Origin: a virus | Length of the DNA: 45,743 nt | Virus genome (UHGV): UHGV-0129770 | Strand: one strand, 5' to 3' | Shown: positions 14,572 to 19,022 of the stretch, piece after piece | How positions within the stretch are numbered: position 1 is the first letter of the stretch | How the letters are laid out: the number at the start of each line of letters is the position of its first letter | Made by a program: the position numbers and the translations under genes | The notes under the pieces: model-generated | Database searches by the model: none | What the model was told of the DNA's origin: nothing | The model's input: only the letters and a program-made list of their open reading frames with translations

Positions 14572-14595
14572 GGCCGCCATGTGCGGCCTTTTTTT
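14572..14595 (+). terminator. intrinsic terminator-like hairpin in the leader of the 14623 gene
   Basis: GGCCGC-catgt-GCGGCC followed by TTTTTTT, located 28 nt upstream of ATG 14623. Confidence 0.5.
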
Positions 14596-14622
14596 GTATC
14601 CGTCATCCGTGGAGGAAGGACA

Positions 14623-15276
14623 ATGGAAAAGATCGCAATATTCAGCCTGACCACCAGCAAGCCTCAAATGCTCACTGCAATACTGAAAGACGGTGCTCTC
14701 ATTATTAACGAAGTAAAACCCCTTCCCGCGTCAGCATTGGAGCAAAAGCAAAAAATTCCTCCAGCTATAGCAGCCCTGCGGAAAAGCAAATTTAAGGTAC
14801 TGGTAGACGAAATTACGCCAACGATCTCCGCTGGCACCGGAGCAAGCCAGGTGACTCTCAAGACCCGTCATGCCGATGGCAGAGCAGCAATCATCGTCGG
14901 GATGGAAAGATACAGAGAGTTAAAACTCCAGAAGCTATTATCCCTGCCGCAAAATAACAAAGGTGCTTTCGAAATCCCCGACTCTATCGTTGATACCGAA
15001 TACAACGGTAACGGAGAAGAAGTCTACAGGGTGAACTGGCAGGATATCAGGCCGGAGCATATTCTGATGATCCTGTGTTGCTACGCGACCGTATACCACA
15101 ACGTTGCCAGTGCAGATTACGTAGAGCAGATGACCGGCACAGTCGAGAAAGAGCAAAAAACAGGCATACTCGCTTCGTTCCTGTCCATTATTGGGCATGA
15201 AAAAGTTAAAGCAGGCACCTCCCAGCCAAAGTCACTGGCTGGGAAAGAAGTTGATGAAGATACCGTGATACTTTGA
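14623..15276 (+). CDS. hypothetical protein
   Basis: ORF track frame; start moved to ATG 14623 (GGAGGAAGG SD) because the listed GTG 14581 start lies inside the terminator hairpin. Confidence 0.5.
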   Translation: MEKIAIFSLTTSKPQMLTAILKDGALIINEVKPLPASALEQKQKIPPAIAALRKSKFKVLVDEITPTISAGTGASQVTLKTRHADGRAAIIVGMERYRELKLQKLLSLPQNNKGAFEIPDSIVDTEYNGNGEEVYRVNWQDIRPEHILMILCCYATVYHNVASADYVEQMTGTVEKEQKTGILASFLSIIGHEKVKAGTSQPKSLAGKEVDEDTVIL

Positions 15277-15411
15277 TCACATTAGTAGCTTTGTTAACTC
15301 CCTCAATACCAGGTAGAAGAGTAACAAAAATATTGACGCGAGTATTTGAGTGGTCAATGAAGCGTTCATAAACAGATCAATTAGCATTAATAATTCGAAG
15401 ATAACATCCAT
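15277..15411 (-). CDS. small hydrophobic protein (44 aa), unlisted ORF; toxin-like
   Basis: Own translation: MDVIFELLMLIDLFMNASLTTQILASIFLLLFYLVLRELTKLLM; GGAG about 8 nt upstream; convergent with 14623..15276. Confidence 0.3.
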   Translation of the reverse strand: MDVIFELLMLIDLFMNASLTTQILASIFLLLFYLVLRELTKLLM

Positions 15412-15604
15412 GTCATTCACTCCGTTTAATTTTTAATCTAATGCCAGCAAATGAAGCTGGCCCCCGCATAAAGATTAATGAAAGTCACTTGTCACCAGTG
15501 AGGGGATTTATGAACCACATCCCCCTGAACTGGTGGCCTGTCTGTTTCTCGCATTTCACACCCTGCATACAGTTTTCCCCAGGTTATGACTGAGGGGCTT
15601 TGTT

Positions 15605-15934
15605 ATGGGCTATAGCAGACTCGACGATAGGTACATTGAAGACGATATTTTTCGTGCGCTGTTTCACCAGGAAATGATTAAGCGGGTATCGGAGTATCAC
15701 TCTGATAATTTCCAGTACACGATAAAGATTGATGAAGTATATCGTTCAGACCTTGCAGCCTACAGGGCGTATGGCAATGCAGATTTGCGCTGGGTATTCC
15801 GGGTGCTGGTGGGCCATGAGTCAGAAATGGAAGAAATGCCCACAGGGACCACGTTAACTCTTCCTGATGTGGCATGGCTGAGGAACAAGATCCGTGATTA
15901 CGCGAGCGCGGAACCGGAGATAGAAAATGCCTGA
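15605..15934 (+). CDS. hypothetical protein, first gene of a two-gene operon
   Basis: ORF track; 8-nt overlap with the downstream gene. Confidence 0.45.
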   Translation: MGYSRLDDRYIEDDIFRALFHQEMIKRVSEYHSDNFQYTIKIDEVYRSDLAAYRAYGNADLRWVFRVLVGHESEMEEMPTGTTLTLPDVAWLRNKIRDYASAEPEIENA

Positions 15935-17120
15935 TTTCCTGAAAAACCAGGACGGGCGCTATATCACTGACGGCCTGTCCTCTAAGGACTTCACGCGTTT
16001 ATTCGACCTTATCAGGAAAGAACAAACCCGTAAGCGCCGGCAAGCTCACCGGACGCTGACGCCAGGTAGACTGAGGAACAAATCCGCCGAAGATATTCTC
16101 AAGTTAGGGAAGAAAAAAGGCGGCACGTTCTTCACGCGAGACGACCTGAAAGGTTTCGAAAAGCTACGGAGTAAAACGCGCGAAAAATATGACAGCAAGA
16201 CGGCTGGCATCACATACGCCCAGCTGGTGGCATCCAGCCAGGCAATCGATATTAAGCGTGCAAATAACGCCGTGGATGACGGATCTGGTATCAAAAGAGC
16301 TACACCCGTATCTCTTCGCCACAATGTGATTAATATCCGCGTAGAAGCATCGGATATATCCGTCCACCAGCACCATATCGTCCGGATACGCTTTGAAGAA
16401 TGGGATCAGATGGTTGATGATATCGCAGAAGACGATAAATCAGCTCTCAAAATCACTAAATCACTGTGCGCCGGGCGAGTGTCTTTCGATTGTGACTGTG
16501 GTCGTCATCAATACTGGTATCGTTACATCGCCACTGCGGGTAACTTTGCCCTGGCACCGCCAAAAGAATACGCCTATCCAAAAGTTCGCAACCCGAAGCT
16601 GCAAGGCGTCGCCTGTAAACACGTGATCCACTCAATGACGCGGTTACAGTCCGCCAGTTGGCAAATGAGTATTGCTCGTGCGCTACAAAAGGCTGCAACG
16701 CAAATTGCATTTGGTGACGATCGCCGCCGTACAACCAAACACTTCTCAAAAGAAGACGAGAAGGAGTTTAATCGCAATCGTAGCAGTAAAACGAACGTTG
16801 ACGCTGCCAAGCGAGAATGGAGGCTCTATCAGAAGCGCCAGGCCGCTTTAAGCACAAAACTGGCAAAGGACAACGGCAAGATTGACAAGCTACGTGACCA
16901 ACTGACCAAGGCCAGAAAGTTGTCAGACGCACAGAAAAAACGGGCGGCAGCAAAAGAAGCGGCGTTGCAACGTGAGAAACAGAAAAACAAGGAGCTTCAG
17001 CAACGCCTGGCCGATCAGTTCGCACTGAAGAAGCAGGCGTTCATTGATGCGCTTGTCATGGCTGGAACACCACCAGCACAAGCTGAAAAAATGTTCATGG
17101 AGTATGTAAAAAAAGCATAA
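15927..17120 (+). CDS. SWIM-type zinc-finger protein with basic N-terminus and Lys/Ala-rich coiled-coil C-terminus
   Basis: CxCx(n)CxH pattern FDCDCGRH...GVACKHVIH; stop lies inside the convergent terminator stem. Confidence 0.5.
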   Translation: MPDFLKNQDGRYITDGLSSKDFTRLFDLIRKEQTRKRRQAHRTLTPGRLRNKSAEDILKLGKKKGGTFFTRDDLKGFEKLRSKTREKYDSKTAGITYAQLVASSQAIDIKRANNAVDDGSGIKRATPVSLRHNVINIRVEASDISVHQHHIVRIRFEEWDQMVDDIAEDDKSALKITKSLCAGRVSFDCDCGRHQYWYRYIATAGNFALAPPKEYAYPKVRNPKLQGVACKHVIHSMTRLQSASWQMSIARALQKAATQIAFGDDRRRTTKHFSKEDEKEFNRNRSSKTNVDAAKREWRLYQKRQAALSTKLAKDNGKIDKLRDQLTKARKLSDAQKKRAAAKEAALQREKQKNKELQQRLADQFALKKQAFIDALVMAGTPPAQAEKMFMEYVKKA

Positions 17121-17147
17121 ACCACACATAGCCTAGTAGTTTATGCT
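17114..17147. terminator. convergent hairpin between the SWIM operon and the AT-rich gene
   Basis: 9-bp stem AGCATAAAC / GTTTATGCT with a 16-nt loop, followed by a T-run. Confidence 0.4.
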
Positions 17148-17153
17148 GGGCTT

Positions 17154-17882
17154 TCATTTTTTTGAAAGATCAATTCCAGTATTATCAAACAAACTGGAAA
17201 TATCAGACACCAATTTATTAAAATGCTTGTCATCATTATAGAATGATGTGCTTTTTATAGCGACTATAAAATCACATAAATCTTGCGGAGATTCAATGCT
17301 AACCCCCTTATTTTTATATAGTTCAATAATACTGCCAACATCAGTATGCAATAGTTTTATCGCGCCACAAATTTCTCGCTGTTTCGTAACCAAGTCATTA
17401 AGTTTATTTTCATTTTCATCTAAGATTTGTTTTGAATATTTAGCGTCATTGGTTGCTTGATTTAACTTTGTTTTCTTTCTTTGCAATTCTATTCTTTTAT
17501 CATAATCAGCAACTTCATCTAAATATCTTATTTCAGTGTATAATTTACTTGTTAGCTTAGATATCTTCAGTGTGAGAACAGGAGCTAACACAGATGCAAA
17601 TACTCCATAAACAAATGGGATTACAACGTGATAAACCCACGGGGATACAATCCAATTATCAATGAACGGGACATTACCACCAACAGAAACAATAGATAAT
17701 GTATATAGGATGTCGTCCTTTGACTTTAATATAATTAAAATATCCTTCCAGTTAAAAATTAGAAATGAAATGACAACATATGCAAAAACCTTGTTAAATA
17801 TTTTATCTTTTATTATTTCAGAAAATGATTTTAGTTCTGTTTCATTTATAGACGGATTATCTTTAACTTTTTCTGACATCAT
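17154..17882 (-). CDS. AT-rich membrane protein with two TM helices and a coiled-coil tail; candidate abortive-infection or exclusion effector
   Basis: ORF track; markedly AT-rich by eye compared with flanks; TM segments VFAYVVISFLIFNW and VYHVVIPFVYGVFASVLAPVLTL; no recognisable family. Confidence 0.5.
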   Translation of the reverse strand: MMSEKVKDNPSINETELKSFSEIIKDKIFNKVFAYVVISFLIFNWKDILIILKSKDDILYTLSIVSVGGNVPFIDNWIVSPWVYHVVIPFVYGVFASVLAPVLTLKISKLTSKLYTEIRYLDEVADYDKRIELQRKKTKLNQATNDAKYSKQILDENENKLNDLVTKQREICGAIKLLHTDVGSIIELYKNKGVSIESPQDLCDFIVAIKSTSFYNDDKHFNKLVSDISSLFDNTGIDLSKK

Positions 17883-17903
17883 AGCTTATCCTGATTACTT
17901 TTA

Positions 17904-18104
17904 TTATGGATAGTTAAAAGATTCAACAGGTGATGGTGGTTGAATTGGGTAATGTTTCTTCTCGTACTCCTCAATGAGAAGACTCATAACCTCAAAGAAA
18001 TCACCTTCCGGAGTATTCATTTCCGGTTCGTTATCGAACATCGGTTCGACCGCACGCAGTGCGGCCTCATAATCTTGTTCTGTACGGATAGGTTTAATGT
18101 TCAT
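17904..18104 (-). pseudogene. truncated HigA-family antitoxin (N-terminal domain only, no HTH)
   Basis: IRTEQDYEAALRAVEPMF...PEGDFFEVMSLLIEEYEKKHYPI matches the N-terminal domain of HigA-type antitoxins as I recall them; ORF stops where the HTH should begin; no cognate toxin. Confidence 0.45.
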
Positions 18105-18117
18105 TAATTACAAAGGA

Positions 18118-18142
18118 AAGCCCACTTGCTAAGTGGGCTTTT
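18118..18142. terminator. bidirectional intrinsic terminator downstream of higA
   Basis: AAAGCCCACTT-gct-AAGTGGGCTTT flanked by an A-run and a T-run. Confidence 0.5.
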
Positions 18143-18160
18143 TGTATGTGTTTTACTATA

Positions 18161-18499
18161 TCAGGCTGCTTTTTTATTCAGGTTCCGCTGAGAAATAAAT
18201 TTTTCAGCAGTATTGATACGACTTAACTCTTCCTGAACGCGCATATCATTTTCGACTTCCCACAGATCTACTGCGGTCTGAAGATTAATCCAAAAATCTA
18301 CAGAAGTATCGAATGCTTTTGCCAGGCGATATGCCATATCCATCGTTAGCTTACGATTGTTATTAACAAGAGCACTTACGGTGTTACGATGAACATGAAG
18401 TATTTCTGCTAACTCGTTGATCTTCAGCTCTAACGGCTCCAGGTATTCGTACAGCAGGATATCACCTACGGTCGTCGGTTTTCTGGTTGCCTGTTTCAT
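18161..18499 (-). CDS. higA: HigA-type antitoxin (XRE-family HTH)
   Basis: GDILLYEYLEPLELKINELAEILHVHRNTVSALVNNNRKLTMDMAYRLAKAFDTSVDFWINLQ is the classic HigA/VapI HTH pattern; sits downstream of the toxin gene. Confidence 0.75.
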   Translation of the reverse strand: MKQATRKPTTVGDILLYEYLEPLELKINELAEILHVHRNTVSALVNNNRKLTMDMAYRLAKAFDTSVDFWINLQTAVDLWEVENDMRVQEELSRINTAEKFISQRNLNKKAA

Positions 18500-18569
18500 T
18501 TTTTGCCCTTACTAGCGTGCGTATTAAGTGGACTCTGGTCAGAACCCGGTCCGTAACCGGGTATCTGTT

Positions 18570-18872
18570 TTAGTATTTGTGAGGGTCGAGATACAAGTCC
18601 TCGGCCTTTCCGTTAACCCACTTAAAAATTAACCTATATTGCTTATTCACCCTTACTGATGAATAGCCATTTAGCTTCCCTGACAGTTCCTCATACCGAT
18701 TACCTGGTGGTGATCTTAAATCCTTACAGGTAGTTGCGGCATTGATAATGTCCAACTTCCGTGACAATCTCATATGAATATCAGGAGGTATCTTTCTATG
18801 TGGTGTTGAAAATTCAAAAAAATCATCAAGCCACGCATCCCTGAAATCCTTTATGTTAATTTTTTTGGTCAT
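18570..18872 (-). CDS. higB: HigB-type toxin (RelE/ParE superfamily killer protein)
   Basis: C-terminal half ...YRLIFKWVNGKAEDLYLDPHKY fits the HigB family; toxin-first operon order. Confidence 0.7.
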   Translation of the reverse strand: MTKKINIKDFRDAWLDDFFEFSTPHRKIPPDIHMRLSRKLDIINAATTCKDLRSPPGNRYEELSGKLNGYSSVRVNKQYRLIFKWVNGKAEDLYLDPHKY

Positions 18873-19022
18873 TAGTCATTTGATCCTCCGTGATGATTAC
18901 CGAATGCCATAACTATAGCGCACCGTTGCACTGTGCGCAAGTGCATTTTATGAATTCCCCCTCCTTCATCCAAAATCACAATCTCCAGAAAATCTTCCTT
19001 TCGATACCTGACAGATCGACCT

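What the first reader, a model, noticed from the sequence alone, without database searches (positions are those of the whole stretch)
15605..17120. Two-gene operon encoding a SWIM zinc-finger protein of unknown role
The 109-aa and 397-aa ORFs overlap by 8 nt. The larger product combines a basic N-terminus, a CxCx(n)CxH SWIM-type zinc finger and a Lys/Ala/Gln-rich coiled-coil C-terminus, suggesting a nucleic-acid-binding protein. It lies in the accessory region between secreted-protein genes and the toxin-antitoxin cluster and converges on the AT-rich gene. Such modules in this position are often anti-defence or defence functions, but that is inference.
Basis: inference. Interest (0 to 1): 0.45.

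Follow-up and report, generated by a model that had tools for sequence, protein, structure and literature searches.

The report
Phage P1-type tail genes 26 and 25
These two overlapping genes are the phage D6 copies of bacteriophage P1's late tail-building genes 26 (a baseplate protein) and 25 (a "tail stability" protein), not a defence module. The one small new point is that the poorly understood gene-25 protein carries a conserved SWIM-type zinc finger.

Summary
ORFs 15605-15934 (109 aa) and 15927-17120 (397 aa) overlap by 8 nt. The larger product is basic, has a CxC-x38-CxH motif and ends in a long helical hairpin.

The interpretation as an accessory or defence-type module is wrong. The window is 98% identical to phage-plasmid D6, where these ORFs are annotated as homologues of P1 genes 26 and 25.
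- Gp26 is a baseplate protein resolved in P1 cryo-EM structures.
- Gene 25 is annotated "tail stability" and known from amber mutants.
- In 241 of 244 viral loci the 26-like gene precedes the 25-like gene, and likewise in 61 of 78 bacterial genomes. Both sit inside a virion-gene string (TerL-mat-26-25-7-24-6-5-capsid-sheath).
- The "accessory" look arises because D6-like elements carry an AT-rich cassette (orf73 plus HigBA) inserted between genes 25 and 7.

What is modestly new:
- The zinc-ligand motif is invariant across the gp25 family, and the only notable fold match is the SWIM protein ZSWIM8.
- Every family member examined is strongly basic.
- Gp25 is the only product of its operon without a solved-structure relative.

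I infer a low-copy, zinc-dependent tail-completion factor. The mechanism is unproven.

The parts
15592..15597 (+). Shine-Dalgarno-like GAGGGG, 7 nt upstream of the gene 26 start codon
   Evidence: Read directly from the sequence.
15605..15934 (+). Orthologue of P1 gene 26 (109 aa, acidic, pI 4.8). It is the baseplate 'plug' or wedge-associated protein, T4 gp53-like.
   Evidence: PHROG 1269 'baseplate wedge subunit', 3.9e-36. D6 annotation reads 'similar to P1 gene 26'. phmmer gives 1e-16 to P1 Gp26 in PDB 9ay5/9vzk. P1 cryo-EM places six copies between hub and wedges.
15916..15919 (+). GGAG Shine-Dalgarno-like element for gene 25, inside the 3' end of gene 26. The 8-nt overlap at 15927-15934 suggests translational coupling.
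   Evidence: Read from the sequence. Near-zero spacing is the rule in relatives: 222 of 238 same-strand pairs lie within 50 nt.
15927..17120 (+). Orthologue of P1 gene 25 ('tail stability'), 397 aa, 45.5 kDa, pI 10.1
   Evidence: PHROG 1722, 4.2e-197. D6 annotation reads 'similar to P1 gene 25', 99.2% identical. It is 57% identical to P1 gp25 over residues 1-334. The family has 653 cluster representatives.
16491..16622 (+). SWIM-type zinc-finger core, C189-x-C191-x38-C230-x-H232, with an invariant E214/P218/N222/G227 loop between the ligand pairs
16797..17060 (+). C-terminal Lys/Ala/Gln-rich helical hairpin (residues 291-378), followed by a short terminal helix
   Evidence: AlphaFold2 secondary structure shows H291-330, H334-378 and H383-396. 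Composition. The P1 record notes myosin-like coiled-coil similarity for this region.
17130..17162 (+). Terminator-like hairpin plus U-run directly after the gene 25 stop codon. It separates 26-25 from the inserted cassette.
   Evidence: Terminator scan. RNA fold -13 kcal/mol, z -2.75. There is no counterpart in P1, where gene 7 starts 4 nt after gene 25.

Best explanation
The two ORFs are the phage D6-type orthologues of bacteriophage P1 late morphogenesis genes 26 and 25. They are the promoter-proximal part of an ancestral, translationally coupled gene string: (TerL)-mat-26-25-7-24-6-5-(major capsid, sheath). In D6-like phage-plasmids an AT-rich cassette has been inserted between genes 25 and 7. 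It carries orf73, a truncated regulator and a HigB/HigA toxin-antitoxin pair. This leaves 26-25 as a stand-alone pair ending in its own terminator-like hairpin.

Shown: Gp26 is a small acidic baseplate protein that glues the wedge ring to the central hub in P1 virions.

Shown by sequence and fold prediction: Gp25 is a 45-kDa, uniformly basic protein built around a SWIM-type Cys2-Cys-His zinc finger, with a C-terminal helical hairpin.

Inferred: gp25 is needed in small amounts during tail completion to keep the sheath extended. It most likely acts as a zinc-stabilised protein-protein (or polyanion-binding) adaptor or assembly factor. In the finished particle it is absent, sub-stoichiometric or disordered. 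P1's record labels genes 25 and 7 'tail stability' and gene 24 'baseplate or tail stability'. Gp7 is now known to be the stopper and gp24 the tail terminator. I therefore favour action at the terminator or neck end, or on the baseplate lock, rather than in building the baseplate itself.
For: Identity:
- The DNA is 98% identical to D6.
- D6 annotates these ORFs as 'similar to P1 gene 26' and 'similar to P1 gene 25'.
- PHROG 1269 scores 4e-36 and PHROG 1722 scores 4e-197.
- The larger protein is 57% identical to P1 gp25.
- The smaller protein matches P1 Gp26 in PDB 9ay5/9vzk at 1e-16.

Context:
- A gp26-like gene is present beside the gp25-like gene in 241 of 244 viral loci, mostly with -8 to +12 nt spacing. 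The architectures are mat-26-25-7-24-6-5 or TerL-x-26-25-x-MCP-sheath.
- The same holds in 61 of 78 genomes from Desulfobacterota and Gamma- and Betaproteobacteria.
- Genes 25 and 7 abut in about 115 loci, but D6-like loci carry inserts of 294-2878 nt.
- The insert has 36.5% GC, against 49.3% for 26-25.

Role:
- P1 record notes read: 26 'baseplate', 25 'tail stability', 7 'tail stability', 24 'baseplate or tail stability'.
- Genes 25 and 26 were discovered as amber mutants, so they count as essential. CRISPRi knock-down lowers plating only about 10-fold.
- P1 gp25 gave only 2 peptides in virion mass spectrometry, and HHpred found no role.
- The 2026 P1 cryo-EM study lists gp26, gp7, gp24, gp6 and gp5 but never mentions gp25.
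- The window's gp26, gp7, gp24, gp6 and gp5 each match a P1 chain in the PDB, and gp25 matches none.

Domain:
- C189, C191, C230 and H232 are invariant.
- The full-length model has pLDDT 81.8.
- pI is 9.5-10.7 in 48 of 48 members, while neighbouring structural proteins are acidic.
Against: - The mechanistic part is inference. No experiment or structure places gp25 anywhere or shows zinc binding.
- The weak virion mass-spectrometry signal could mean a true minor structural protein rather than a departing assembly factor.
- Cryo-EM with imposed symmetry cannot exclude a flexible or asymmetric component.
- The Pfam SWIM model does not reach threshold for the query.
- The CxC-to-CxH spacer of 38 residues is longer than in the SWIM fingers I recall from the original description (6-25 residues, from memory).
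- The 'tail stability' phenotype is known to me only through annotation strings. The primary paper (Walker and Walker 1983) was not available.
- The CRISPRi data are confounded by ineffective roadblocks.
Confidence: 0.8

Rival explanations
1. Gp25 is a genuine, permanent virion component, for example a flexible baseplate or neck appendage, or a protein in the tail lumen or portal channel bound to the DNA end. It has simply escaped symmetric cryo-EM reconstruction.
For: Two gp25 peptides were found in purified P1 virions. The tape measure, tripod and fibres were also unresolved in the same maps. The basic charge and zinc finger would suit contact with DNA or with acidic neighbours such as gp7, pI 4.2.
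Against: Two independent near-complete models of the P1 tail and baseplate have no unassigned density attributed to it. Coverage was only 8.4%, and the authors themselves doubt a structural role. A tenfold-only effect of knock-down fits a low requirement.
Confidence: 0.3
2. The pair is an accessory defence, anti-defence or restriction-evasion module carried in a variable region of the phage-plasmid.
For: It sits next to a HigBA pair, an AT-rich gene and a fragment resembling PD-Lambda-2_B. SWIM domains occur in some bacterial helicase-associated proteins (my own knowledge).
Against: The pair is core, not variable. It is present and syntenic with tail and head genes in 241 of 244 viral loci and across phyla. 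It has core-like GC content. It is homologous to genes known from P1 amber mutants. PADLOC shows only a noise-level hit, E 0.009, over the coiled coil. The variable DNA is the inserted cassette downstream.
Confidence: 0.02
3. Gp25 is a DNA- or RNA-binding regulator that controls expression of the downstream tail genes, rather than taking part in assembly.
For: All 48 members are strongly basic. It has a zinc finger. It lies next to 'mat' (maturation control) in most relatives. One homologue has been annotated as an MvaT-like regulator.
Against: The MvaT label rests on a low-complexity Lys/Ala-rich tail. No HTH or known DNA-binding family is detected consistently. Structurally characterised SWIM domains such as ZSWIM8 act in protein complexes (and my own knowledge). 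The annotated phenotype is a specific tail defect, not loss of late proteins. Some protein copurifies with virions.
Confidence: 0.07

Closest known systems
Bacteriophage P1 gp25 ('tail stability' protein; PHROG 1722) and its D6 orthologue orf74
   Same: Full-length homology: 99.2% identity to D6, and 57% to P1 over residues 1-334. Same length class. Same position directly after gene 26. Same C-terminal coiled-coil region.
   Different: The C-terminal 60 or so residues diverge from P1. In D6 and this window gene 25 is no longer followed by gene 7, but by a terminator-like hairpin and an inserted cassette.
Bacteriophage P1 Gp26 baseplate plug (PDB 9ay5, 9vzk), the counterpart of T4 gp53
   Same: Sequence match 1e-16 over residues 4-99. 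PHROG 1269. A small acidic protein encoded at the head of the operon.
   Different: It is 109 aa against 125 aa in P1. The direct Pfam Phage_gp53 match is below threshold (13.6 bits against a cut-off of 21), so the link to T4 gp53 rests on the P1 structural work.
SWIM zinc-finger domain (Pfam PF04434; e.g. human ZSWIM8, PDB 9rwz)
   Different: The spacer between the ligand pairs is 38 residues and carries its own invariant E..PK..NP..G loop. The Pfam model misses the query and gives only weak hits, best E 0.01, in 6 of 48 relatives. Here the domain sits in a basic coiled-coil protein of a virion-assembly operon.
Non-structural or catalytic tail-assembly factors of myoviruses (e.g. T4 gp51/gp26-type hub assembly factors), by functional analogy only
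   Same: Genetically required for a correct tail, yet absent or nearly absent from the finished particle. The P1 proteomics authors drew the same analogy for gp25, gp7 and gp16.
   Different: No sequence or fold relationship was found. The comparison concerns how it may work, not family membership.

Membership tests
P1 gene 25 family (PHROG 1722/4315, 'tail stability' protein) | Full-length sequence homology to P1 gp25 | tested here: met
   PHROG 1722 at 4.2e-197 over residues 2-396. tblastn gives 57% identity to P1 and 99.2% to D6.
P1 gene 25 family (PHROG 1722/4315, 'tail stability' protein) | Position directly downstream of a gene 26 homologue, within a virion morphogenesis gene string | tested here: met
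   True in the window, in 241 of 244 viral loci and in 61 of 78 bacterial genomes.
P1 gene 25 family (PHROG 1722/4315, 'tail stability' protein) | Loss of function gives unstable or contracted tails and no plaques | not testable with these tools
   Known only for P1, from annotation and citing papers.
P1 Gp26 / T4 gp53-like baseplate plug | Sequence homology to P1 Gp26 as modelled in the baseplate | tested here: met
   phmmer gives 1e-16 to 9ay5_S/9vzk. PHROG 1269 at 3.9e-36.
P1 Gp26 / T4 gp53-like baseplate plug | Match to Pfam Phage_gp53 (PF11246) above the gathering score | tested here: not met
   E 0.052, 13.6 bits against a cut-off of 21. The T4 link rests on HHpred and cryo-EM work on P1.
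SWIM zinc finger (PF04434) | CxCxnCxH metal-ligand signature, conserved in homologues | tested here: met
   C189, C191, C230 and H232 are invariant in 48 sequences down to 22% identity. The spacer of 38 residues is unusually long.
SWIM zinc finger (PF04434) | Significant match to the Pfam model | tested here: not met
   No hit for the query at E<=1. 6 of 48 relatives hit weakly, best E 0.01.
SWIM zinc finger (PF04434) | Fold resembling a solved SWIM domain | tested here: inconclusive
SWIM zinc finger (PF04434) | Binds zinc | not testable with these tools
   Needs metal analysis of purified protein.
Anti-phage defence or anti-defence modules | Match to a known defence-system protein model | tested here: not met
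   PADLOC finds nothing for the 109-aa protein. For the 397-aa protein there is one noise-level hit, E 0.0094 and 13.4 bits, over the coiled coil.
Anti-phage defence or anti-defence modules | Patchy, accessory distribution among related elements | tested here: not met
   The pair is near-universal and syntenic with tail genes. The variable DNA is the neighbouring cassette.

The most novel reading that the evidence does not exclude
The gp25 family may be a previously unrecognised class of myovirus tail-completion factor. It would be a uniformly basic SWIM zinc-finger and coiled-coil protein that is genetically essential yet not part of the finished, symmetric virion. It would act as a zinc-dependent chaperone or adaptor, possibly binding DNA or the acidic stopper, terminator or plug proteins, to lock the sheath in its extended state. 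That would be the first defined biological role for a SWIM domain in a virus of bacteria.
Probability: 0.35. Interest if true: 0.45.

Novelty: already known. Interest (0 to 1): 0.2.

Why it matters
For this scan, the finding should be filed as ordinary. It is a core tail-assembly gene pair of a D6/P1-type phage-plasmid, already annotated as such in GenBank. It is not a candidate defence or anti-defence system.

The residual value is narrow but real. P1 gp25 is one of the last products of the P1 morphogenetic operons without a molecular role. The analysis shows three things about its family:
- it is built around an invariant SWIM-type zinc site;
- it is strongly basic in every lineage examined;
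- it is the only product of its operon missing from solved P1 virion structures.

This turns a vague "tail stability" label into directly testable hypotheses: zinc-ligand mutants, partner mapping and presence or absence in particles. The analysis also shows that the 25/7 junction is a cargo-insertion hotspot in D6-like plasmid prophages. That junction is where defence-related cargo should be sought instead.

Tried and rejected
- Solved-structure relatives of gp25 by sequence, with the single protein and with a 48-member profile: only noise.
- Pfam on the query: nothing.
- The AlphaFold-database fold library was not available. BFVD was used instead.
- Late-promoter search upstream of genes 26 and 7. 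The P1 LP26 element has no obvious counterpart. An inverted repeat at 15482-15502 is unique in the window. A shared 'TTTATGAA' element is no more frequent than chance. In most relatives mat runs straight into gene 26, so upstream regions are not comparable. The promoter is left unassigned.
- Profile-profile tests for hidden homology between P1-type neighbours (gp7, gp24, mat) and the ABMM1-type neighbours (PHROG 4597, 5187, 4545): all negative. A PHROG-4597 profile finds nothing in the PDB.
- Rosetta-stone fusions of gp26 and gp25: none among 269 family proteins.
- Primary literature (Walker and Walker 1983, Lobocka 2004, Gilcrease and Casjens 2018): not held in the library.
- Literature searches for a SWIM finger in P1 gp25 or in phage virion proteins: nothing found.
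- A scaffolding-protein reading was considered, because ABMM1-like and Rb1-like phages place the gene close upstream of the capsid gene. I rejected it because P1's annotated gene-25 phenotype is a tail defect, and because the P1 capsid protein loses its own N-terminal 124 residues to the prohead protease.

Full report
OBSERVATION

They share 8 nt. Each is preceded by a Shine-Dalgarno-like element, GAGGGG at 15592-15597 and GGAG at 15916-15919.

The larger protein has these properties:
- 45.5 kDa, pI 10.07, and basic in all three thirds.
- It contains C189-x-C191-x38-C230-x-H232.
- AlphaFold2 (mean pLDDT 81.8, pTM 0.72) predicts N-terminal helices, a mixed beta/alpha core and a long C-terminal helical hairpin at 291-378.

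Gene 25 converges on an AT-rich minus-strand gene at 17154-17882 (29% GC). A hairpin at 17130-17152 plus a U-run lies right after its stop codon (-13 kcal/mol, z -2.75).

IDENTITY

The region 15400-17200 is 98% identical to Escherichia phage D6, a P1-like plasmid prophage. The D6 record annotates the two genes as orf75 'baseplate wedge subunit, similar to P1 gene 26' and orf74 'tail protein, similar to P1 gene 25'.

Independent checks agree:
- The small protein matches PHROG 1269 (baseplate wedge subunit, 3.9e-36), and the large one matches PHROG 1722 (tail protein, 4.2e-197).
- The large protein is 57% identical to P1 gp25 over residues 1-334.
- The small one matches P1 Gp26 in PDB entries 9ay5 and 9vzk at 1e-16.

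In P1 the genes run 26-25-7-24-6-5 from late promoter LP26. The record's notes read: 'baseplate' (26), 'tail stability' (25), 'tail stability' (7), 'baseplate or tail stability' (24), 'tail length' (6) and 'baseplate' (5).

CONTEXT IN RELATIVES

A profile search of 1.84 billion representative proteins found 653 family members with E<=0.001, and 349 with E<=1e-10. Those listed are mostly 330-450 aa long.

I fetched 244 loci from viral contigs, some contigs twice, and labelled neighbours with iteratively built HMMs.
- A gp26-like gene accompanies the gp25-like gene in 241 of the 244 loci. In 222 of 238 same-strand pairs the two lie within 50 nt, typically -8 to +12 nt.
- Two architectures dominate. 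One is [TerL]-mat-26-25-7-24-6-5-[major capsid-sheath]. The other, in Acinetobacter phage ABMM1-like genomes, is TerL-PHROG4545-26-25-PHROG4597-PHROG5187-capsid-x-x-sheath.

A scan of one genome per bacterial species found the family in Desulfobacterota (Desulfosarcina, Desulfovibrio, Bilophila) and Gammaproteobacteria (Vibrio, Xenorhabdus, Psychrobacter, Halomonas). It also occurs in Betaproteobacteria (Nitrosomonas, Vitreoscilla, Paraburkholderia). Many contigs are 70-95 kb.
- In 61 of 78 of these genomes a gp26-like gene lies directly upstream.
- A third arrangement also appears: TerL-24-26-25-PHROG4597-capsid-sheath.

Among cultured phages only P1-like phages, D6, Cronobacter phage JK004, Acinetobacter phage ABMM1 and Xanthomonas phage Rb1 carry the gene. 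The pair is therefore a core unit of the virion module of a large P1-related myovirus clade, not accessory DNA.

WHY IT LOOKED ACCESSORY

Genes 25 and 7 abut (-11 to +11 nt) in about 115 loci. D6-like loci instead have inserts of many different sizes there, from 294 to 2878 nt.

In the window the insert is 1902 nt at 36.5% GC. The 26-25 pair has 49.3% GC and genes 7-24-6-5 have 48.2%. The insert carries:
- orf73 (PHROG 8191, unknown function);
- a 66-aa ORF resembling the N-terminus of PD-Lambda-2_B;
- an HTH antitoxin-like gene and a HigB toxin (PF05015, 4.8e-35).

Upstream, mat normally overlaps the start of gene 26 in relatives, but here it is separated by 328 nt. The 'two-gene operon' is thus a fragment of a longer ancestral late operon, cut off by inserted cargo and ending in a terminator-like hairpin. 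I could not identify its promoter.

WHAT THE PROTEINS DO

Gp26 is settled by others' work. Two P1 cryo-EM studies place six copies between the central hub and the wedges, as a T4 gp53-like or 'plug' protein.

Gp25 is not settled.
- P1 virion proteomics found only two peptides (8.4% coverage). HHpred gave no role, and the authors allowed that it may be an assembly cofactor.
- The 2026 whole-virion study lists head, connector and baseplate proteins, including gp26, gp7 (stopper), gp24 (terminator), gp6 (hub) and gp5 (spike). It never mentions gp25.
- The window's gp26, gp7, gp24, gp6 and gp5 each hit a P1 chain in the PDB (9ay5/9vzk, 9ums, 8jan, 9vzk, 9vzk). Gp25 hits nothing, as a single sequence or as a profile.
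- Genes 25 and 26 were discovered as amber mutants, so they count as essential. CRISPRi knock-down reduced plating only about tenfold, though the authors suspect ineffective roadblocks.

NEW DETAILS ON GP25

Across 48 family members sharing 22-51% identity with the query, only twelve columns are invariant. They include C189, C191, C230, K231 and H232, together with E214, P218, N222 and G227 in the loop between the ligand pairs.

Fold evidence points to a SWIM-type domain:
- Foldseek against viral models returns small uncharacterised phage proteins. Two of them are named SWIM-type, from Achromobacter phage Motura and Burkholderia phage BcepSauron.
- The Pfam SWIM model misses the query and hits 6 of 48 relatives weakly.

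I therefore call it SWIM-type, with an unusually long and conserved insert. It is not a certified PF04434 member.

All 48 members have pI 9.5-10.7. The neighbouring structural families are acidic to neutral, with medians of 5.3 (gp26), 4.2 (gp7), 5.3 (gp24), 6.6 (gp6) and 5.4 (gp5). No gp26-gp25 fusion exists among 269 family proteins. Literature searches found no report of a SWIM finger in P1 gp25.

MECHANISM (INFERRED)

The P1 record labels genes 25 and 7 'tail stability' and gene 24 'baseplate or tail stability'. Gp7 is now known to be the stopper and gp24 the tail terminator. Gene 26 is instead labelled 'baseplate'. Together with its near-absence from particles, this suggests the following. 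Gp25 acts after baseplate formation. It works in small amounts, through a zinc-stabilised interaction module and a basic surface. It helps to complete or lock the extended tail, at the terminator or neck end or on the baseplate lock. It is not a stoichiometric building block.

Rival readings, with my confidence in each:
- A flexible or asymmetric minor virion protein: 0.3.
- A nucleic-acid-binding regulator: 0.07.
- A defence or anti-defence function: 0.02. PADLOC gives no meaningful hit, and the distribution is core.

VERDICT

The feature is already known and annotated as P1 genes 26 and 25 in phage D6. Interest is low. The caveat is that the SWIM-type zinc site, the uniform basicity and the 'missing from the structure' status give concrete handles on an unresolved P1 protein.

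Noticed in passing
window 17121-19022: An AT-rich cassette (36.5% GC; orf73 29% GC) lies on the opposite strand between tail genes 25 and 7, which abut in about 115 related loci. D6-like loci show at least 15 different insert sizes here (294-2878 nt). The 25/7 junction therefore looks like a cargo-insertion hotspot.
   Followed up: partly
window 17904-18104 (-): A 66-aa ORF matches the first 65 residues of the defence protein model PD-Lambda-2_B (2.5e-16). Compared with D6, the window lacks about 200 bp here, which truncates D6 orf72, a 119-aa 'transcriptional regulator'.
   Followed up: partly
window 18161-18499 (-) and 18570-18872 (-): A HigB-like toxin (PF05015, 4.8e-35) with an HTH_3 antitoxin-like partner, as annotated in D6.
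   Followed up: partly
window 17154-17882 (-): orf73 is a 242-aa protein encoded at 29% GC. It belongs to PHROG 8191 (unknown function) and has no PADLOC or significant Pfam hit. It is the most foreign-looking gene of the cassette.
   Followed up: no
window 14581-15276 (+) and related loci such as L032, L035, L048: In most relatives the 'mat' (maturation control) gene overlaps the start of gene 26 and often follows the large terminase gene. The ancestral string is therefore TerL-mat-26-25-7-24-6-5. In P1 mat lies far away, and in D6 it is 328 nt upstream. Its molecular role is also undefined.
   Followed up: partly
L004 5699-6247 (ABMM1), L003 8884-9387 (Rb1) and many loci: In ABMM1-like, Rb1-like and Nitrosomonas-type genomes an acidic protein of about 170-190 aa (PHROG 4597, unknown function) always follows the gp25-like gene. 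In Rb1-like and Nitrosomonas-type genomes it directly precedes the capsid gene, and in ABMM1-like genomes PHROG 5187 lies in between. It has no detectable similarity to P1 gp7 or gp24 or to any PDB chain.
   Followed up: partly
L003 7800-8879 (Xanthomonas phage Rb1): The gp25-family gene of phage Rb1 is annotated 'transcriptional regulator MvaT'. This is probably a mis-annotation driven by the Lys/Ala-rich tail. Rb1 also lacks a detectable gp26-like gene upstream.
   Followed up: no
window 15482-15502: A near-perfect inverted repeat, AAGTCACTTGTCACCAGTGAG, lies about 100 nt upstream of gene 26 and is unique in the window. It could be a regulatory site, but no function was established.
   Followed up: partly
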